40,932 bases of DNA from a virus. The DNA lies in the UHGV virus genome UHGV-2003109; one strand, 5' to 3'. Shown in pieces: positions 8,337 through 18,388 of this stretch; position 1 is the first letter of the stretch, and every line of letters begins with the position of its first letter. The notes under the pieces were generated by a model, which worked only from the letters and a program-made list of their open reading frames with translations, was not told the DNA's origin and ran no database searches. A program made the translations under genes and the position numbers.

Positions 8337-8666
8337 CTATGCCACGACCTGTTCAAAATCTGCCGTTATGGTTACCCACAACGCCCCCACGCTTGCCGAC
8401 CATTTACGACAAACCACCCTGATCGGCTTCCAGTCATAAGGTGGCGTCCACTGAAATGCGCGGACGCCACCGTGCCGTTCCAGAAAGGCTTTTAAAGATG
8501 GGTGTTCACATTTACGAACACGTATCGTCACGCTGTAAGTCGACAACTGGTTATTCAGTCCCGCCGCACGACGCTGTTCATAACCATCGCCCAGCTTCAC
8601 TGTCACCACTTTCGGCTCTGATACCACATTCATATCCGGGCGCACTTTCCAGTGAAACGTCTCCAT
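8337..8666 (-). CDS. M: Tail tip protein M
   Basis: Lambda gpM-like, 109 aa, located between H and L. Confidence 0.9.
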   Translation of the reverse strand: METFHWKVRPDMNVVSEPKVVTVKLGDGYEQRRAAGLNNQLSTYSVTIRVRKCEHPSLKAFLERHGGVRAFQWTPPYDWKPIRVVCRKWSASVGALWVTITADFEQVVA

Positions 8667-11600
8667 TACCGATATGCTCCACTTAACCGACCACCATCAC
8701 GGGCCTGCTGTTGCATAAAGTCCGCTGCCGCTTTTTTCCCAAGGTCATAAACCACCTTCAGGGCAGCCGGACCTATCTGCCCGTTCGTGCCATCGTTATT
8801 GATCTCGATGTTGTACTGCGGGGCAAACATCGCCATACCTGAACCACCAATATCCGCCACAACCCCCAGCTTACCGTCAGCACCACGACGCAGTGGCAGA
8901 ATGGCTTCAGGTCCAGCTTCCCCCATCACACCCGCGCCTTTTGCAAAAGCAAAAAACGTCGGACGGTTAACCACCGTGCCACTGTAACGACTCAAATCAG
9001 CAGACTGATAAATCCCCCCATTGGCATTCAGGGAAAGGCTGCTGAGATCAAATCCCAGTACACTGCCAATCCCTTTTATCGATTTCATCATGGTTGCCTG
9101 CGCCAGGATTTTCGCCATATCTGACAGCACAGAAGAGGTGAAAGATTTGAAATTGAGTTTGCCGGTAGTGACAAAAGTTGCCAGGCCATTTCCCATGTTG
9201 CTGAAGGCTGACGAGAACACCTGTTCTGCTGTTTCTGCCGTATTATCTGCATCCACGGTAAAATCCTGAAATGCACGCAGGACTCCGTTTTTCCAGTTAC
9301 CCTGCACAACTTCAAGCTGTTGCCAGTAACGGCGATTCTCATTCAGTTGTCGGTTCAGGCTCTCCGTCAGCGCCTGCTCGGCCTTTCTGTAGTCATCCGT
9401 GTTATATGTCCCTTTCTGCTCACTATCCCGCCTCAACTGCTCCAGCTGTTGCTGGTATTTCTGGCGAAGACTCAGTTGTACCTGATATCGCTGTCGCTGC
9501 TGATCACCCATACCCACCGTGGCGATATCCAGGTCATGTTGCTGACGCTGAGCGCGCTCTTCTTCAGCCAGTTGACTGGTCAGCTGAATTGTTTTTTTCT
9601 TCAGCTCGTTGAGTGCCGTCTGTTTCTGAAGCTCCTGCTGTTTTACATCCAGCAGCGTCAGTGCCTGAATCAGTTCATCTTTACGGGCCAGCACACTCTT
9701 TTCATCTGCCGTCAGTTTTTTCCCGTCCAGGTCGCTGATGCGCTGCTGCAGAGCCAGAAGCTGTTTATGCGCTTCTGTCATCCTTTCCGTGGCAATGCCT
9801 GCTGACTGTCTGGCAGCAGCAATCTGTCCTTCCACCTGTGCCTGTTGCTGACTGTACTGCAGCAATAACCGGGTGGCCTCATCATTACGGGTTTCGCGTG
9901 TTTTTTTCTTACCGGATGCCAGGGCTTTCTCGTAACGTTCATTTTCACGTTGTATCGCCGCATCCCTGACAGCCTGATCGGCGTACTGCATGGCATTAAT
10001 ACGCGCAATTTCACGCTGATGTCGTGCTGCTTCCGTTTCATTCATCCGGTTCAGTGCAGCATTTTCAGCATTACGGCGTTTCTGTTGCTCCTGATAATTC
10101 CGCTCTGCCTGCTCTTTTGCATCCTGCAAATCCTTCTGGCGTTTTTTCTCCTGAAGATCGTTAAGACGCTGCTGATCGTATTCAACCTGAGAAGATGATG
10201 CCGTCCAGGGGAGTCTTTTCGCCCGCGACACTTTCTCCTGTAAAGCGGCAATCTGTTCATCCAGCGAGTCTTCACGACCAATATTCATGGCCGTATCCCA
10301 GAAACGACTCCACAAATCAGACAGATACTTCAGCGTACTGCCAAGCGCATTGAGGTTATTATCAATATCCGCAGTACGCCGACCGGTTTCCTCTGCCAGT
10401 GCAGACATGGCTATCCGTGCAGCATCACTGGACCGCCCCTGCTCCCCAAGGACGCGTATCTGCTCAAGCTGAGTGGCAGTAAGAAAATGCAGCTCATTGT
10501 CCAGAGCCTTCGCGGCATTTACAGGATCATCCTTCAGCCGCTTAAACTGATTTATGGTATCGCTGACCGACTGGCCAACCGATCGCTCCATCTGTGCGGC
10601 AGCTCTCGCCACCATACCGATATCGTTTCCACGAAATGCACCACTCCCCACCACCTGAGCCAGCGCACCGGCTGCAGCATGTTGCGTGATACCATTCCCG
10701 GAAATAGCACGACTGAGCGTCCACAGCTGCCCGGCAGTGACTCCGGCATAATGCCCCGTCAGCGACAACTGGCGGTTAAATTCTTCCCCCTCCTTCTGAC
10801 CGTCATACCAGGCTTTACCCAGACCATAGACGGCCGCGGCAATACCGCCAATAACCCCGCCAAGCATCATGCCTTTCGGTGACATCAGTGTGTCTATCCA
10901 TCCGGCACGGTTAGCCAGCGTTATCCCGGATCCCCTCAGCGCCCCTAAATTGCCGCGGGCCAGTTCACCTATCAGAACGCCTATCTCCTGGCGGGCTGCT
11001 GCACTTTTCAGACCCAGCGAATGCGTGGCTTTTCCTGCCTGCTCCATTTTGCGGATATACACTTCTGCAGCACTGCTTACCCCCAGCTGGGCTGCCTTAG
11101 CACGAAGCAACTCAGAAGATGAAAGATTCAGGCGGGTTGCCTGCTCTTTAAGCTGACGGATAAACGCCACTTTCTGTCGGGTAGCCTCTTCCTCAGCCTG
11201 TGTAAGAACACGGGTTTTCGCAGTAACCTCAGAAATCAGCGCCAGATAATCCTGCTGACCAATCCCGCCACTGTTTCTGGCCTGTCGGATCTGCTGCTGA
11301 ATACGCTGTAATTCCTGCAGCCCCGCACTGGCCTGTTTCACACTGTCAATCTGACGATAAAACGCAGCAGCCGCTTTATCCTGAGCCTCCGCCAGAGCCA
11401 TGGCCTGCGCCTGTTCCTCGCGCATTTTCTGGCTCAGTGCCTCCATGCGCTGGCGGGTTTTCTCCACCTCGCGGGCCATGCGTTCATGAGCCTGTGCGTT
11501 CTTCTCCACCGTCTGCGCATGGACGGATGCGGCTGTTGCAGCCGAAGAAGCCGCCTGCGTTGTCTGCCGGGCGGCCTGAGTCTGACGCTCCATAAAACGC

Positions 11601-11731
11601 TGCATACGGGCAGAAGACCGTTCTGCATCGCTGGCTGCACCATTCAGAAGGTTTTTGATACGGGGAATTTCATTTTTAAACTCTGCCGCATCAATCCCCA
11701 AATCAATGACCAGGTTGGCTATCTGGTCCAT
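8666..11731 (-). CDS. H: Tail tape measure protein
   Basis: ~1020 aa coiled-coil-rich protein; C-terminus ...NNDGTNGQIGPAALKVVYD... matches lambda gpH C-terminus; ATG at 11731 with GGAGGT RBS. Confidence 0.9.
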   Translation of the reverse strand: MDQIANLVIDLGIDAAEFKNEIPRIKNLLNGAASDAERSSARMQRFMERQTQAARQTTQAASSAATAASVHAQTVEKNAQAHERMAREVEKTRQRMEALSQKMREEQAQAMALAEAQDKAAAAFYRQIDSVKQASAGLQELQRIQQQIRQARNSGGIGQQDYLALISEVTAKTRVLTQAEEEATRQKVAFIRQLKEQATRLNLSSSELLRAKAAQLGVSSAAEVYIRKMEQAGKATHSLGLKSAAARQEIGVLIGELARGNLGALRGSGITLANRAGWIDTLMSPKGMMLGGVIGGIAAAVYGLGKAWYDGQKEGEEFNRQLSLTGHYAGVTAGQLWTLSRAISGNGITQHAAAGALAQVVGSGAFRGNDIGMVARAAAQMERSVGQSVSDTINQFKRLKDDPVNAAKALDNELHFLTATQLEQIRVLGEQGRSSDAARIAMSALAEETGRRTADIDNNLNALGSTLKYLSDLWSRFWDTAMNIGREDSLDEQIAALQEKVSRAKRLPWTASSSQVEYDQQRLNDLQEKKRQKDLQDAKEQAERNYQEQQKRRNAENAALNRMNETEAARHQREIARINAMQYADQAVRDAAIQRENERYEKALASGKKKTRETRNDEATRLLLQYSQQQAQVEGQIAAARQSAGIATERMTEAHKQLLALQQRISDLDGKKLTADEKSVLARKDELIQALTLLDVKQQELQKQTALNELKKKTIQLTSQLAEEERAQRQQHDLDIATVGMGDQQRQRYQVQLSLRQKYQQQLEQLRRDSEQKGTYNTDDYRKAEQALTESLNRQLNENRRYWQQLEVVQGNWKNGVLRAFQDFTVDADNTAETAEQVFSSAFSNMGNGLATFVTTGKLNFKSFTSSVLSDMAKILAQATMMKSIKGIGSVLGFDLSSLSLNANGGIYQSADLSRYSGTVVNRPTFFAFAKGAGVMGEAGPEAILPLRRGADGKLGVVADIGGSGMAMFAPQYNIEINNDGTNGQIGPAALKVVYDLGKKAAADFMQQQARDGGRLSGAYR

Positions 11732-12032
11732 AACGCACACCTCCGGAAATACCTTCCCCAAGATGCATCAGTTCTTCGTCCGTTCGCTCCGGTATCCCGT
11801 TCTCTTCCGGTAAAAGGCTGAAATCAGCCACCGCAGCATCACTGCTGCCGGACACCATTCTCACGATCAATGCCTTCAGCGAGGCAAACTGCGCATCCAT
11901 CCACACATCACTAAAGCTCTGCATCCGGAAATAATCGCCCCACTCACCAAGCTCAGTGGCCGACATTTCCGACAGCATCCGCCGCCAGTCTGCCCGCCGG
12001 AACTCCCGGGCAAGCCGCATGACAAACTGCAT
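11703..12032 (-). CDS. T: T segment of the tail assembly chaperone G-T, expressed by -1 frameshift from G
   Basis: ORF in the -1 frame relative to G, open from upstream of the G stop; lambda G-T position between V and H. Confidence 0.7.
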   Translation of the reverse strand: MQFVMRLAREFRRADWRRMLSEMSATELGEWGDYFRMQSFSDVWMDAQFASLKALIVRMVSGSSDAAVADFSLLPEENGIPERTDEELMHLGEGISGGVRYGPDSQPGH

Positions 12033-12040
12033 TTCCCGCG

Positions 12041-12430
12041 TCAGGACTTTTCCGGCGTCAGCACCTCATGCTCCAAATCCCCGGCATTCTCAATGGCCCC
12101 CATACCGCTCAGCGACAGAACCATCTCCGCCCCCGCACCCAGGGCATCATACGACCATGTTGTAATAACGGATGCGCAAAGCGTCTCTACATCCTTAGAC
12201 TGATCCGCATTCCACAGTGAGCGGGAAACCAGCCAGGCATTGATATCCATCCCCATCCGCAGAAAAGCAATCTGTCGTTCAGCCTCCGGCAGTTCTCCCT
12301 CTTCGGCATCAAACTTTGCCGTTCGCTGCTGAAGAAACGCCAGATATTCAATTCTCTGCAGCCCGGACAGCTCACTGAGCACCACGGACTGTTTTTCATG
12401 ATTAAACGTGCCCTGTTTCAGAAACATCAT
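12041..12430 (-). CDS. G: Tail assembly chaperone G
   Basis: MFLKQGTFNHEKQSVVLSELSGLQRIEYLAFL... resembles lambda gpG (MFLKTESFEHNGVTVTLSELSALQRIEHLAL...). Confidence 0.85.
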   Translation of the reverse strand: MMFLKQGTFNHEKQSVVLSELSGLQRIEYLAFLQQRTAKFDAEEGELPEAERQIAFLRMGMDINAWLVSRSLWNADQSKDVETLCASVITTWSYDALGAGAEMVLSLSGMGAIENAGDLEHEVLTPEKS

Positions 12431-12487
12431 GTTCTCCACCTGCAAAAAAGCCCCGGATAACCGGGGCAAATGATGAGTATCGTCCTG

Positions 12488-13231
12488 TTAACCTGCGGCG
12501 CTGACAGCCACCGTAGCCACTGCCACAAAATCGCCGTCAGAAGTCATGCCCACAATGCTGACACTGCCCTGCTTCACGCCTTTCACCGTGGCCACAAGCC
12601 CGTTCAGGGTCACAGTGGCTGTCTGTGGATCTGTCGAATGCACACTGATCGCTTTGTCACTGGCTCCGTCAGGTTTTACTGTAAAGGTCAGCGTGGTGGT
12701 TGCTCCCACATTGACACTGGCGGATGCCGGTGCCACCGTCAGCCCGGTAACGCCCACGGTTTCAGTGCCCTCCTCTGCCAGATACGGACGCCCCACACCG
12801 CTGATTTTCACTGTGCGGGTCATCACGTCTTTTGAGGCAATGGTTTTACCCAGTGAACTCAGCCAGCCACGGAAAACATCAACAGTACCGTTGGGATATT
12901 TGATTCGAAACGCGCAGACTTCACCGGAGTCGAACAACTGAACCAGTCTTTTCTGTCCGCTGTCACCCGGACGCCAGGCCAGCGTCGCCGAAGTATCACC
13001 GACGGATTTCTGCCCCTGGGTTGTCGTTTTCCAGTCTGCATCTTCATCATCGAGATAAGTGTCATCTTCTGCATCAGCGGTCATTTCGCCAGGTTGCAGA
13101 TCCTTCACCATCGCAAGACGCAGCCAGTCAGTGTCCGATAAAGGGTTCGCAAACGCATCGCCCTTGCCGGTGTACATCCAGAACGTCGTTCCCGCACCTT
13201 TCGTTTTTGCCAGTGGATTTGGTGTGGTCAT
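12488..13231 (-). CDS. V: Major tail protein V with C-terminal Ig-like domain
   Basis: MTTPNPLAKTKGAGTTFWMYTGKGDAFANPLSD... matches lambda gpV; the longer track ORF (to 13306) is an upstream extension. Confidence 0.9.
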   Translation of the reverse strand: MTTPNPLAKTKGAGTTFWMYTGKGDAFANPLSDTDWLRLAMVKDLQPGEMTADAEDDTYLDDEDADWKTTTQGQKSVGDTSATLAWRPGDSGQKRLVQLFDSGEVCAFRIKYPNGTVDVFRGWLSSLGKTIASKDVMTRTVKISGVGRPYLAEEGTETVGVTGLTVAPASASVNVGATTTLTFTVKPDGASDKAISVHSTDPQTATVTLNGLVATVKGVKQGSVSIVGMTSDGDFVAVATVAVSAAG

Positions 13232-14907: not shown

Positions 14908-16866
14908 TTACGCCGTACATTTCACCAGACCGCGGTGATCAACTGGCGCGACACCAGCGTCAATACGCACTTTCGTTGTCACGCCATCCACACTGAAGCC
15001 CTCCATCTGATCAATATATGGCGTATCCACACCGTTGAGATAAGCCACTTCAATCGTATCGGAGCCTTTTGACGCAGCCAGGTAGAAGGTGGTCTGGCTG
15101 TTATCATCAAGACGAGGCTCTGCAATAACGGTCGCAAAATCTTTCACCGGGTTAATAATACCGGCGTTAATGTCAGCCCCCTTGACACTTGAGGAGCGAA
15201 TGACCTGGTTAGCAACAGACTCCATCGCCGTCGGTACCAGTACGAACGCAGGACGAATATTCAGATGACGCTCCCCCTCTTTCTGTACGCGCATCAACTG
15301 GCGGGCTTTATCCAGCGATGCCACGTCCATTGCAGCGCTCTCCAGTACGTTTGCATGTTTCGCTTTATCGAACAGACTTACATTATCTGTGGATATTTTC
15401 GGGTTAGACGTCAGAATGGCATAAACCAGATCGGCAATAGTGGATTTCGCCGCACGGCCCAGTTTCATCGGGACATCGGTCAGCATATTCAGATCATCAT
15501 TGATAATGGCCTGACGGGTGATACTGAACAGCTCGCCATAGGTCGCCAGTGCAATAGTGGCCTGTTTATCTCCGGTGGTGACGTATTTATATTCCGCCCC
15601 TTCACGCACCTGACGCAGAGCACTGAAGCCCCCCATACCCACACGATGGGCAATTTTAAAATCAGACAACTGACCTTTCCGCGTCCACTGTTCATAGGTT
15701 TCAGGGGCATCTTCCCAGCCCTGCAGAATGGCTTTGTTCGCAACATCCAGCAGAATATTACCGAAGTCAGACGTACTGTGTGTGAACGCCGCACCGACCA
15801 TCTGCATCGGGTTATAACTGGAAACCCCAATACCCCGTTCAGTCAGTGACATACGGGCATATTCACGCAGGGTCATCCCGTTGTAGACATTATCACGTTC
15901 GGTTTTTTCAAATCCGGCACGCGCCATCAGCGCCTGGCGGATCCCGTCCCCCACAAAATTACCGTTACCGGCATAAATATGATCCAGGGTATTTTTATTG
16001 GATGGCGTGGACTCGCGACCCATCTCGTTCAACAGCTTTTCGCGGGCCTGCTCCAGCGAACATTCAGGATCGGCAAGACACTGAGCCTGCAGCGTCTGAT
16101 AACGCCCGTCAAACATGGCAAACAGATCATTAATACCGTTTACACGCGCTTTTTGCTCTGCCAGTACCTGCGCACGGATGCTGTTTTCATCCACCACGGG
16201 TGCTGCTGCCTGCACTGGCGTCCGGGAGGCTGCAGGTTCATCATCCTGTACGCGTGGAGCACTGTTGCGTGGCGGAGTAATCATGTTTCGAATGGATTCC
16301 GGCATCTTTTTAAATTCCTCTGTACGTTTTGACTGAATACATGCCATTGCCTTAACGGCTGGCGTCACCTGATCAGCAAATCCATGAGCCAGACATTCGG
16401 CTCCGGACATCCAGGTCTCATCCGCCAGCATGGCAGCAATTTCATCGGTGGTTTTCCCGGTTTTCTGTGCATAAGCGGGTAACAGAACCGCCTCAACTTT
16501 ATCGAGCAGGTCGGCATAGGTGCGCATGTCCTCCGCATCACCGCCCGTAAAGCCAAATGGTTTATGAATCATCATGAAGGTGTTTTCCGGCATAATGACC
16601 GGGTTTCCCACCATCGCAATGACCGACGCCATTGACGCCGCCACACCGTCGACATAAACGGTAATGGACGCACCATGTGTTTTCAGCGCATTAAAAATGG
16701 CGATGCCTTCAAAGACATCGCCACCCGGTGAATTAATATGGAGATTAATGTGGGTGATACCGCCCAGTGCATTCAGATCACTGATAAACTGCTTTGCTGT
16801 AACACCCCAGAAACCAATCTCGTCATAAATATAAATATCCGCGTCACTCTGGTGACCAGCCTGCAT
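14908..16866 (-). CDS. Prohead protease (ClpP/S49-like) fused to major capsid protein
   Basis: N-terminal part has protease-like motifs (INSPGGDVFEGIAIFNAL...); C-terminal part resembles an HK97-fold capsid protein; ATG at 16866 follows the portal stop. Confidence 0.85.
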   Translation of the reverse strand: MQAGHQSDADIYIYDEIGFWGVTAKQFISDLNALGGITHINLHINSPGGDVFEGIAIFNALKTHGASITVYVDGVAASMASVIAMVGNPVIMPENTFMMIHKPFGFTGGDAEDMRTYADLLDKVEAVLLPAYAQKTGKTTDEIAAMLADETWMSGAECLAHGFADQVTPAVKAMACIQSKRTEEFKKMPESIRNMITPPRNSAPRVQDDEPAASRTPVQAAAPVVDENSIRAQVLAEQKARVNGINDLFAMFDGRYQTLQAQCLADPECSLEQAREKLLNEMGRESTPSNKNTLDHIYAGNGNFVGDGIRQALMARAGFEKTERDNVYNGMTLREYARMSLTERGIGVSSYNPMQMVGAAFTHSTSDFGNILLDVANKAILQGWEDAPETYEQWTRKGQLSDFKIAHRVGMGGFSALRQVREGAEYKYVTTGDKQATIALATYGELFSITRQAIINDDLNMLTDVPMKLGRAAKSTIADLVYAILTSNPKISTDNVSLFDKAKHANVLESAAMDVASLDKARQLMRVQKEGERHLNIRPAFVLVPTAMESVANQVIRSSSVKGADINAGIINPVKDFATVIAEPRLDDNSQTTFYLAASKGSDTIEVAYLNGVDTPYIDQMEGFSVDGVTTKVRIDAGVAPVDHRGLVKCTA

Positions 16867-16879
16867 CCTGAACCAGGAA

Positions 16880-18388
16880 TTATTCTTCGGACTGGTCGTC
16901 GGTGTGCTGCGGCTCCTGTCGTTTCGTTGCGGCACTGCTGCCTCCTTTATCACTGGCCGGATCGGTATCAAATACCAGATCCAGCTTGCGGTTTTCATCA
17001 ATTTCGGCCTTGCGCCGACGTTTGACATCATCCGGATTACGACCACCTGCACGTACCCAGTCTGATTCTGTCGCCGCTCCACCACGAATCTGAATTTTCC
17101 AGGCCTCAGCCTCCTTAACAGGGTCAATCCACGGCATCACTGGTCCGGAATACACCGCGGTATACAGTGAAGAACGGTCAAGATCGCGGGGTAACCTGAT
17201 AACACCGGATGCCACAGCCTGTTTCAGCCATGCACGATACATCGGGCGGGTTACGGCACCAATAAACCAGTCCTGCAGGATCAGGTAGCCATCAGTAGAC
17301 TCAACCAGTTCCTGACGCTGGGCGCTGTAAGTGCCGTTATAGTTTCGTGCCGTACTGGAAAAACTCAGACGACTGCCCGCCGCCACGGCACGCAACTGAC
17401 CATTACGAAAAGTTTCAAGGTTAGGATTGGGACGATCCGACTTCACCATTCCGATTTCTTCGCCGGGTTTCAGATCGTCGTAAATAATGCCTGGCTGAAT
17501 GGTAAGCTCGCGTTCATTCTCCTTGCTGTCATTACCATCCGTTTCATAGCTCTGTCCGTCGCCTTTCCGGATGTACATCCCCAGAGCAGCGGCGATCCTT
17601 GCTGCAGTCAGCTCAGAATCTTCATACTCTTTCAGGGCGCTGAGGCGGATCAGCACACCGGACAATAAAGACGTCCCGCGCATCTGGTGCAGACGGCGAA
17701 CAAATTTAAGATGCAGCATTCGCTCTGCATCCACTTCTTTGGTTTCCATCTGCCGTCCGGATACAGGACGACTTTTATACACCAGATATTTTTCGGGACG
17801 CCCCCAGTCATCAACAAACACGCCCTGATTCAGCCTGTTGCTCTCATCACTGGTCATGGGAATAAAGTCCGGCTCGAGCGCCTCCAGCCAGAAATGAACA
17901 CCGGCAGAAGGCGTCAGGCTGTTTATGCGCCCGGAAACCATCTGGGCAAACACCTCACCATCGCGCAGCCAGGTACGCAGCATCAGACGTTCCAGCATCG
18001 GACGGGTAAACTGCCCGGTGACTTCCGGACTGACAGACCATTCACTCCATCGGGTGCGTATCTCCGCTGCCAGGTCACGGGCAATGGCACCATTGCGTAA
18101 TACCGGATGTGGCTCGACAATAATCCCGTTTTTCCCCACCACCCGTTCTTCCAGCTTGTCAAATACACCAATGACCAGATCGTGGTTGTTATCAAGGTAA
18201 CGGGCCTGCTCACGTAACGACACGGCCCCGTACTGGCTTAACTGGTCGGCAGTTCGGTTCTCCCGTCGGGCTTTGTGTGTCCGCGTCGTTTTTACGGCCT
18301 CATAAGCCTGGATCACCGCTCGGGAACGCAGCCTTGCCGCTTTCCATCCTGGTGAAAAAACGCCAATCACATCATCAAGAATTGCCAT
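16880..18388 (-). CDS. B: Portal protein
   Basis: Lambda gpB-like size and position; ATG at 18388 overlaps W stop in ATGA. Confidence 0.9.
   Translation of the reverse strand: MAILDDVIGVFSPGWKAARLRSRAVIQAYEAVKTTRTHKARRENRTADQLSQYGAVSLREQARYLDNNHDLVIGVFDKLEERVVGKNGIIVEPHPVLRNGAIARDLAAEIRTRWSEWSVSPEVTGQFTRPMLERLMLRTWLRDGEVFAQMVSGRINSLTPSAGVHFWLEALEPDFIPMTSDESNRLNQGVFVDDWGRPEKYLVYKSRPVSGRQMETKEVDAERMLHLKFVRRLHQMRGTSLLSGVLIRLSALKEYEDSELTAARIAAALGMYIRKGDGQSYETDGNDSKENERELTIQPGIIYDDLKPGEEIGMVKSDRPNPNLETFRNGQLRAVAAGSRLSFSSTARNYNGTYSAQRQELVESTDGYLILQDWFIGAVTRPMYRAWLKQAVASGVIRLPRDLDRSSLYTAVYSGPVMPWIDPVKEAEAWKIQIRGGAATESDWVRAGGRNPDDVKRRRKAEIDENRKLDLVFDTDPASDKGGSSAATKRQEPQHTDDQSEE

What the first reader, a model, noticed from the sequence alone, without database searches (positions are those of the whole stretch)
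12040..12070. G-T programmed -1 frameshift with a non-canonical slippery sequence
The T frame is the -1 frame relative to G and is open for about 24 nt upstream of the G stop, as required for the conserved G-T chaperone fusion. Lambda uses G GGA AAG; the only A-rich slippery candidate in the overlap here is CCG GAA AAG (GGAAAAG), which would require single-tRNA-Lys slippage (AAG to AAA). My manual coordinate count disagreed with the ORF track by 1 nt in this interval, so the local sequence deserves re-inspection.
Basis: partly seen in the sequence, partly recalled or inferred. Interest (0 to 1): 0.45.

Follow-up and report, generated by a model that had tools for sequence, protein, structure and literature searches.

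The report
Tail chaperone G-T frameshift site GGAAAAG
This is the ordinary lambda-type frameshift that joins two phage tail-assembly genes (G and T); its slip signal differs from lambda's by one base, and that variant proved to be the commonest one in related enterobacterial prophages and is already marked in the phage N15 record.

Summary
On the minus strand, G (12430-12041, Pfam Phage_TAC_2) ends in TGA at 12043-12041. The T frame (Phage_tail_T) is the -1 frame and is open from 12065. The only plausible slip site in the 22-nt overlap is G_GAA_AAG (12053-12047). There is no 1-nt anomaly.

The heptamer sits at exactly the position of lambda's G_GGA_AAG: Lys, then Val, then 10 more residues before the conserved LARE motif.

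The site is not exotic. The N15 GenBank record marks the same GGAAAAG at the same position as the -1 slippery sequence. In 48 non-redundant homologous junctions, 37 carry GGAAAAG and only 3 carry lambda's GGGAAAG.

Positions 4-6 (AAA) are invariant. Position 1 is G in 37 of 39 GAA_AAG sites, across six different codons. This favours tRNA-Lys re-pairing perfectly (AAG to AAA) together with near-cognate tRNA-Glu re-pairing (GAA to GGA, central G.U), not purely single-tRNA slippage. No conserved stimulatory RNA structure was found.

In vitro, this heptamer is reported as less slippery than lambda's, so a low GT yield is expected but unmeasured.

Verdict: a new member of a known kind, of low to moderate interest. 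The practical point is that the G-T fusion is unannotated for this module, which occurs in about a third of complete E. coli genomes.

The parts
12041..12430 (-). Gene G, the tail assembly chaperone (129 aa from ATG 12430; PGAP uses the second ATG at 12427). Stop TGA at 12043-12041.
   Evidence: Pfam PF06894 Phage_TAC_2, E=1.1e-39. ORF and start candidates. GGAG lies 6 nt upstream of ATG 12430.
12047..12053 (-). Slip heptamer G_GAA_AAG. The 0-frame codons are GAA (12052-12050) and AAG (12049-12047). The -1-frame codons are GGA (12053-12051) and AAA (12050-12048).
   Evidence: It occupies the homologous position to lambda G_GGA_AAG and to the annotated N15 slippery sequence. It is conserved in 37 of 48 non-redundant relatives.
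12044..12065 (-). G/T overlap window. This is the only stretch where a -1 shift links G to T. It is bounded by the -1-frame stop TGA at 12068-12066 and the G stop at 12043-12041.
11703..12047 (-). T segment of the predicted GT fusion, read in the -1 frame from GTC (12047-12045) to stop TGA 11705-11703. The predicted GT is 242 aa with junction ...LTPEK|VLTREMQF...
   Evidence: Pfam PF06223 Phage_tail_T, E=5.1e-15. Fusion built. The same construction for lambda reproduces UniProt P03735 exactly.
12030..12032 (-). ATG used by RefSeq/PGAP and phage records as an independent start for T. It is probably not a real start.
   Evidence: Annotated as the T start. This codon is CTG, CGT, CAT or another codon in most relatives (alignment columns 52-54). 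There is no well-spaced SD: GGGAA abuts the ATG.
12062..12067 (-). SD-like GAGGTG. Its GAGG core ends 10 nt upstream of the heptamer. It is a candidate weak stimulator only.
   Evidence: GAGG at this spacing occurs in about 10 of 48 relatives and is retained in both alleles of close relatives, but it is absent from N15, phi80 and lambda.
12450..12467 (-). GC-rich hairpin followed by T6, between V and G. It resembles an intrinsic terminator or attenuator ahead of G-T-H.
   Evidence: The equivalent site is annotated as a terminator in the mEp460, Ayreon and N15 records.
8666..11731 (-). Tape measure gene H. Its start overlaps the end of T by 29 nt. Context only.
   Evidence: Pfam TMP_2, TMP_4 and Tape_meas_lam_C.
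12488..13231 (-). Major tail tube gene V. Context only.
   Evidence: Pfam Phage_TTP_12, E=2.6e-66, plus Big_2.

Best explanation
This is a lambda-type programmed -1 ribosomal frameshift. Most ribosomes translate G to its TGA stop and make the chaperone gpG. A small fraction slip back one base on G_GAA_AAG (12053-12047), with tRNA-Glu on GAA and tRNA-Lys on AAG. tRNA-Lys re-pairs perfectly (AAG to AAA). tRNA-Glu re-pairs near-cognately on GGA, with first and third positions paired and a G.U in the middle. Translation then continues in the T frame (GTC CTG ACG...) to give a 242-aa GT fusion, ...LTPEK-VLTREMQF... By analogy with lambda, its G part binds the tape measure protein and its T part recruits the tube protein. 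No RNA structure appears to be needed. The G stop one codon downstream and an SD-like GAGG 10 nt upstream may contribute. Shown here: frame geometry, homology, and positional and nucleotide conservation. Inferred: that slippage occurs, its efficiency, and which tRNAs move.
For: G and T are Pfam Phage_TAC_2 and Phage_tail_T in the order V-G-T-H. T is the -1 frame and the heptamer lies within the 22-nt overlap. The junction aligns with lambda without gaps, with the same Lys-Val and the same spacing to LARE...DWR.ML. The same junction rule reproduces UniProt GT_LAMBD exactly. N15 annotates GGAAAAG at the homologous site as the -1 slippery sequence, and HK225 names the product GT. In the gap-free alignment of 48 non-redundant junctions, the heptamer is the only conserved block within otherwise variable flanks, and AAA at positions 4-6 is invariant. 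AAG is used in 45 of 48 sites against a 0.36 background share. Position 1 is G in 37 of 39 GAA_AAG sites across GCG, CCG, CTG, TTG, ACG and GTG, against a G3 background of 0.30-0.53. The annotated T start codon is not conserved. Viable phages carry this exact junction: mEp460, cdtI, Ayreon and phi458. G_GA-type P-site codons are an accepted near-cognate class (PMC5009743).
Against: No experiment on this heptamer in a G-T context was found. [quoted passage not shown] A_AAG alone is near background without a stimulator (PMC4066793), and no stimulatory structure was detected here. Two Morganella relatives have A_GAA_AAG, where tRNA-Glu could hardly re-pair. Conservation statistics are not corrected for phylogeny.
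Confidence: 0.66

Rival explanations
1. The -1 frameshift occurs at the same place but through tRNA-Lys alone on A_AAG. tRNA-Lys would slip either in the A site or as peptidyl-tRNA in the P site while TCC or the nearby stop awaits decoding. tRNA-Glu would not re-pair. The protein product would be identical.
For: A_AAR is the only invariant element across all variants: GGGAAAG, GGAAAAG, GGTAAAG, AGAAAAG, GGCAAAA and AAAAAAG. Morganella A_GAA_AAG_TAA and the G_GCA_AAA_TAG sites cannot re-pair the P-site tRNA. Peng et al. treat G GAA AAG as a one-tRNA site.
Against: Position 1 would be free under this model, yet it is G in 37 of 39 GAA_AAG sites over six codon types (conservative p about 0.004). 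Heptamers that lose P-site pairing occur only where a stop codon directly follows (5 of 5 against 5 of 43). That implies they need compensation, which the window lacks, since its stop is one codon further on. A_AAG alone is at background without a strong stimulator.
Confidence: 0.24
2. There is no frameshift. T is translated independently from ATG 12032 as a 109-aa protein, as RefSeq/PGAP and most phage records annotate it.
For: It is annotated this way in mEp460, cdtI and E. coli RefSeq genomes. An ATG exists at that position.
Against: That ATG is not conserved: it is CTG or another codon in most relatives. It has no properly spaced SD. T homology, including residues conserved with lambda GT, begins upstream of it, right at the heptamer. 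The -1 arrangement and the heptamer are conserved across genera. Lambda T is made only as GT (UniProt P03735; PMC5009743).
Confidence: 0.04
3. The frame change arises by transcriptional slippage on the A run, or the junction is a decayed, non-functional remnant.
For: None specific. The site contains an A4 run.
Against: Four A residues is far shorter than the runs that support RNA polymerase slippage (established knowledge). The junction is invariant in 80 IMG/VR loci and is present in plaque-forming phages and in 1847 complete E. coli genomes.
Confidence: 0.02

Closest known systems
Phage lambda G/GT -1 programmed frameshift at G_GGA_AAG (Levin, Hendrix & Casjens 1993; UniProt P03735)
   Same: Homologous G and T domains (Pfam PF06894 and PF06223). 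Same V-G-T-H gene order. The slip site is at the same alignment column, with the same Lys then Val junction and the same spacing to the LARE motif. The G stop follows shortly after the site. No conserved downstream structure.
   Different: Heptamer position 3 is A, not G. The P-site tRNA is therefore tRNA-Glu (GAA) re-pairing on GGA with a central G.U, instead of tRNA-Gly re-pairing cognately. The G stop is 1 codon after the heptamer instead of 5. T identity to lambda is only about 37-39%.
Phage N15 genes 14/15 (NC_001901), with misc_feature 10027..10033 'slippery sequence for -1 translational frameshift'. Also HK225, phi80 and mEp043.
   Same: Identical heptamer GGAAAAG at the identical homologous position.
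   Different: T is about 40-43% identical. The preceding codon is GCG, not CCG. The G stop is 5 codons downstream. As far as I could find, the N15 site is an annotation and not an experimentally mapped junction.
G_GAN_NNZ near-cognate shift sites of some eukaryotic RNA viruses, for example pea enation mosaic virus G_GAU_UUU_UGG_UAG (PMC5009743)
   Same: The P-site codon is GAN re-pairing on GGA. In PEMV a stop codon 3 nt after the heptamer matters, and the window has the same layout (G_GAA_AAG_TCC_TGA).
   Different: Those are eukaryotic ribosomes, different tRNAs and usually a strong downstream structure. There is no homology. Whether the stop codon matters here is untested.
A_AAG tetramer frameshifting (IS3 type)
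   Same: An A_AAG core decoded by the single E. coli tRNA-Lys (mnm5s2UUU).
   Different: IS3 depends on a strong downstream pseudoknot. No significant or conserved structure was found here.

Membership tests
Lambda-type G/GT tail assembly chaperone frameshift | G homologue located between the major tail protein and tape measure genes | tested here: met
   PF06894, E=1.1e-39. Flanked by Phage_TTP_12 (V) and TMP_2/Tape_meas_lam_C (H).
Lambda-type G/GT tail assembly chaperone frameshift | T domain encoded in the -1 frame, overlapping the 3' end of G, with no conserved start of its own | tested here: met
   PF06223, E=5.1e-15. Frame geometry. ATG 12032 is not conserved in 48 relatives.
Lambda-type G/GT tail assembly chaperone frameshift | Slip-prone heptamer inside the overlap, at the position homologous to lambda's | tested here: met
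   GGAAAAG at 12053-12047 shares its alignment column with lambda GGGAAAG and the annotated N15 GGAAAAG.
Lambda-type G/GT tail assembly chaperone frameshift | A GT fusion protein is actually produced at a few percent of G and is needed for tail assembly | not testable with these tools
   Needs protein-level data. The predicted fusion is absent from public protein collections.
Canonical X_XXY_YYZ tandem slippery heptamer | Positions 1-3 are identical, giving cognate P-site re-pairing | tested here: not met
   Positions 1-3 are G, G, A. Re-pairing of tRNA-Glu on GGA leaves a central G.U.
Canonical X_XXY_YYZ tandem slippery heptamer | Positions 4-6 are identical, giving cognate A-site re-pairing | tested here: met
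   AAA, invariant in all 48 aligned relatives. Z is G, the most shift-prone A-site codon in E. coli (PMC4066793).
Stimulator-dependent A_AAG tetramer sites (IS3 type) | Stable downstream stem-loop or pseudoknot 5-9 nt after the motif | tested here: not met
   Fold z-scores of 0.08 and -0.95. RNAalifold consensus energy -1.39 kcal/mol with no covariation. A hand-picked stem pairs no better than shuffles.
dnaX-type sites with an upstream SD-like stimulator | SD-like element about 10 nt 5' of the heptamer | tested here: inconclusive
   GAGG(TG) ends 10 nt upstream in the window and in about 10 of 48 relatives. It is absent from N15, phi80 and lambda, and is partly explained by a conserved Glu codon.

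The most novel reading that the evidence does not exclude
G_GAA_AAG, not lambda's textbook G_GGA_AAG, may be the standard slip signal of lambda-type G-T genes in Enterobacterales. It may have been selected because it is weak. It would set a lower GT:G ratio than lambda's roughly 1:25-30. It would also make that ratio depend on two tRNAs that both carry the mnm5s2U34 modification (tRNA-Glu and tRNA-Lys), coupling tail assembly more tightly to host tRNA thiolation and sulfur status than was shown for lambda. The nearby stop codon would act as a compensating stimulator in lineages with still weaker heptamers.
Probability: 0.2. Interest if true: 0.5.

Novelty: new member of a known kind. Interest (0 to 1): 0.22.

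Why it matters
Biologically this is the expected G-T recoding event, so it changes little. There are two practical points. First, this exact junction occurs in about a third of complete E. coli genomes (1847 of 5426). There, and in the related phage records, T is annotated as a separate ORF from a non-conserved ATG, and the predicted GT fusion is in no public protein collection, so a widespread annotation error could be corrected. Second, the survey shows that the near-cognate heptamer G_GAA_AAG dominates this family, although in vitro work used it as a 'less slippery' comparison. That makes it a convenient natural system for asking how much P-site mispairing a bacterial -1 site tolerates, and whether an adjacent stop codon compensates.

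Tried and rejected
1. A downstream stimulatory RNA structure was rejected. Folding 87 nt and 191 nt gave z-scores of 0.08 and -0.95. RNAalifold on 48 relatives found only a trivial 4-bp hairpin about 60 nt downstream with no covariation.

2. A stem seen by eye in the N15 group (CGCCAG...CTGGCG, alignment columns 42-47 and 70-75) was rejected. It paired in 71.2% of cells against 70.6% in shuffles.

3. A family-wide upstream SD-like stimulator is not supported: 23 of 48 sequences have some SD-like 4-mer, with no consistent position.

4. Other slip sites in the overlap: none permits re-pairing.

6. The first related-loci search returned 80 loci with identical T. It was uninformative for divergence, so I replaced it with phage tblastn hits and a one-genome-per-species scan.

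7. A literature search on the raw heptamer was mostly noise. Xu et al. 2004 and 2013 are not held in the library, so I could not check whether they list or tested this heptamer.

8. Two papers opened for N15/phi80 context held nothing relevant.

Full report
**What is at the coordinates**

The tail genes run on the minus strand. Pfam identifies four genes in lambda order.

| Gene | Coordinates | Pfam evidence |
|---|---|---|
| V (tail tube) | 13231-12488 | Phage_TTP_12, E=2.6e-66, plus Big_2 |
| G (chaperone) | 12430-12041 | Phage_TAC_2, E=1.1e-39 |
| T frame | 12065-11703 | Phage_tail_T, E=5.1e-15 |
| H (tape measure) | 11731-8666 | TMP_2, TMP_4, Tape_meas_lam_C |

Reading the junction base by base:
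- G frame: ...GAG GTG CTG ACG CCG GAA AAG TCC TGA, with the stop at 12043-12041.
- -1 frame: TGA (12068-12066) GGT GCT GAC GCC GGA AAA GTC CTG ACG CGG GAA ATG...

T is therefore the -1 frame of G. The two frames overlap for 22 nt (12065-12044). GGAAAAG sits at 12053-12047, with GAA and AAG as 0-frame codons. No other codon pair in the overlap could re-pair in the -1 frame.

The suspected 1-nt discrepancy is not in the sequence. Both ORF lengths are multiples of three. The segment 11850-12250 is 100% identical to an E. coli chromosome, and the junction string is the commonest allele among 80 IMG/VR loci. The heptamer alone is unremarkable, with 12 copies in the window against 7.1 expected. Its meaning comes from its position.

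**Homology of the site**

Lambda slips at G_GGA_AAG (record position 10109). After the shift lambda reads ...AGK|VFDGELSFALKLAREMGRPDWRAML. The window reads ...PEK|VLTREMQFVMRLAREFRRADWRRML. The Lys, the Val and the 10 further residues before LARE line up without a gap.

Building the fusion by this rule for lambda gives exactly UniProt P03735, 'Tail assembly protein GT'. The junction model is therefore sound. The window differs from lambda's heptamer by one base, A instead of G at position 3.

**The site is common and already annotated**

The window is 98-99% identical here to phages mEp460, cdtI, Ayreon and phi458. Divergent homologues with 32-66% T identity were fetched and read in register.

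| Heptamer at the homologous site | Phages |
|---|---|
| G_GAA_AAG | N15, HK225, phi80, mEp043, Klebsiella phage Kp4865-4, Salmonella Fels-1, the window |
| G_GGA_AAG | lambda and two others (PhiR12_4, Stx2a_JNE090861) |
| A_AAA_AAG | two Stx phages (Stx2_14040, Stx1_111698) |
| C_CCA_AAA | Vibrio phages |

The N15 GenBank record carries a misc_feature 'slippery sequence for -1 translational frameshift' whose bases are exactly GGAAAAG. HK225 names the downstream product 'tail assembly protein GT'.

A scan of one genome per species returned 80 loci. After merging with the phage loci and removing sequences at least 93% identical, 50 junctions remained; leaving out the two Vibrio phage loci, whose site is offset by 3 nt, 48 were aligned without gaps.

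| Heptamer | Count among 48 |
|---|---|
| GGAAAAG | 37 |
| GGGAAAG | 3 |
| AGAAAAG | 2 |
| GGTAAAG | 2 |
| GGCAAAA | 2 |
| GGGAAAA | 1 |
| AAAAAAG | 1 |

The 'non-canonical' heptamer is thus the majority form in Enterobacterales, and lambda's is a minority form.

**What the conservation says about mechanism**

In the gap-free alignment the heptamer is the only conserved block within otherwise variable flanks. Positions 4-6 (AAA) are invariant and position 3 is free.
- AAG is the A-site codon in 45 of 48 junctions, although AAG is only 36% of Lys codons in these G genes.
- Position 1 is G in 37 of 39 GAA_AAG sites. The codon carrying it varies: GCG 16, CCG 9, CTG 7, TTG 2, ACG 2, GTG 1.
- The background share of G-ending codons for those amino acids is 0.30-0.53. 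Counting only one event per codon type gives p of about 0.004. Neither figure is corrected for phylogeny.

The -1 frame upstream of the slip is not translated, so this G has no coding reason to be fixed. It is what tRNA-Glu needs to keep first-position pairing on GGA. I therefore favour tandem slippage with a near-cognate P site (first and third positions paired, central G.U) over pure single-tRNA-Lys slippage.

The single-tRNA model is not excluded. The two Morganella sequences have A_GAA_AAG. In addition, all five heptamers that lose P-site pairing or use AAA have a stop codon directly after the heptamer, against 5 of 43 for the rest (Fisher p=1.5e-4, uncorrected). That pattern suggests an adjacent stop can compensate for a weaker heptamer. 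In the window the stop is one codon further on (TCC TGA). This is the same layout as the PEMV site G_GAU_UUU_UGG_UAG, where the stop matters (PMC5009743).

**Stimulators**

None was found.
- The 87 nt downstream fold no better than shuffles (z=0.08), and neither does a 191-nt context (z=-0.95).
- RNAalifold on 48 relatives gives -1.39 kcal/mol and no covariation.
- A candidate stem seen by eye fails the shuffle control.
- An SD-like GAGG(TG) ends 10 nt upstream of the heptamer in the window. It is retained in close relatives but is not family-wide.

**Expected efficiency**

This part is inference.
- Lambda keeps the 0 frame about 96% of the time (PMC3296357), with a G:GT ratio of about 30:1 (PMC5009743).
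- In a reconstituted system, AUG_GAA_AAG gave mainly 0-frame product and was called 'less slippery' than G_GGA_AAG (PMC6924986).
- A_AAG alone is at background in vivo without a stimulator (PMC4066793).
- Bock et al. measured about 5 kJ/mol for an A.U to G.U change in the P site, at the first codon position only (PMC6787027). Applying that to lambda's 4% gives roughly 0.6%. This is a rough figure.

Both tRNAs at this site are MnmA/MnmE (mnm5s2U34) substrates. The GT:G ratio could therefore be more sensitive to host thiolation than in lambda. This is untested.

**Alternatives**

- Independent translation of T from ATG 12032, as PGAP and the phage records annotate, is unlikely. The ATG is not conserved. 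It lacks a well-spaced SD. T homology starts upstream of it, at the heptamer.
- Transcriptional slippage is unlikely on a run of only four A.

**Comparison with known systems, and novelty**

The site meets every sequence-level criterion of the lambda G/GT system. It fails only the strict X_XXY_YYZ rule at position 3. The G_GA P-site class is recognised. PRFect lists a 'twofour' motif class, which GGAAAA fits by its naming rule. N15 carries the same annotation. This is a new member of a known kind.

The useful by-products are an annotation gap and a survey result. The junction is in 1847 of 5426 complete E. coli genomes, yet G and T are annotated separately. The predicted fusion is absent from a 15-billion-protein collection. 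The survey shows that G_GAA_AAG dominates this family.

Noticed in passing
L104, L106, L108, L110, L148 (and L113, L114, L120, L129, L167): Heptamers weaker than G_GAA_AAG (A_GAA_AAG, G_GCA_AAA, G_GGA_AAA) occur only where the G stop codon directly follows the heptamer: 5 of 5 against 5 of 43 for the rest (Fisher p=1.5e-4, not corrected for phylogeny). This suggests an adjacent stop codon compensates for poor re-pairing. Across all 48 junctions the G stop is always 0, 1 or 5 codons after the heptamer.
   Followed up: partly
L151-L157, L159-L163, L171, L174, L175: Junctions identical to phage lambda itself turn up on short or low-coverage contigs of unrelated assemblies, including Neobacillus, Oceanobacillus, Kitasatospora, Pseudomonas, Shewanella, Leeuwenhoekiella, Enterococcus and Pseudoxanthomonas. 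This is most likely lambda DNA contamination of those assemblies.
   Followed up: no
L097, L102, L144: Enterobacterial prophage G-T junctions appear in MAGs labelled Bacillota, Proteobacteria and Geobacteraceae (T 98-100% identical to the window's in L097 and L102, 44% in L144). This is probably mis-binning or contamination.
   Followed up: no
window 12450-12467 (minus strand): A 7-bp all-GC hairpin (GCCCCGG TTAT CCGGGGC) followed by TTTTTT lies between V and G, just before the G ribosome-binding site. It resembles an intrinsic terminator or attenuator that would lower G-T-H expression relative to V. The equivalent site is annotated as a terminator in mEp460, Ayreon and N15.
   Followed up: partly
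window 12030-12032 (minus strand); E. coli RefSeq, e.g. NZ_LR778145 WP_001161009.1: PGAP and the phage records annotate T as a stand-alone 109-aa protein starting at a non-conserved ATG. No record seen joins G and T. The segment is in 1847 of 5426 complete E. coli genomes, so the mis-annotation is widespread.
   Followed up: yes
window 12062-12067 (minus strand): GAGGTG, a 6-nt match to the Shine-Dalgarno core, has its GAGG ending 10 nt upstream of the heptamer. This is the spacing reported for the dnaX upstream stimulator. It is retained as GAGG in both alleles of close relatives but is absent from N15, phi80 and lambda.
   Followed up: partly
window 12048-12055 with 12002-12009 (minus strand): In the 191-nt fold, CGCCGGAA, which includes the first four bases of the heptamer, pairs perfectly with UUCCGGCG about 38 nt downstream. 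The overall fold is not better than shuffles (z=-0.95), and a ribosome on the site would have melted this helix.
   Followed up: partly
window 14908-17127 (minus strand): A single 739-aa ORF combines a Clp-protease domain (PF00574, E=7.7e-36) with a phage capsid domain (PF25209, E=2e-54). It is a prohead protease fused to the major capsid protein. It is followed by a cement protein gene (14866-14498) and a Gifsy-2-family gene (14505-14230).
   Followed up: partly
window 11703-11731 (minus strand): The tape measure gene H appears to start (ATG 11731) 29 nt before the T stop, in another frame, so G, T and H form a chain of overlapping reading frames.
   Followed up: no
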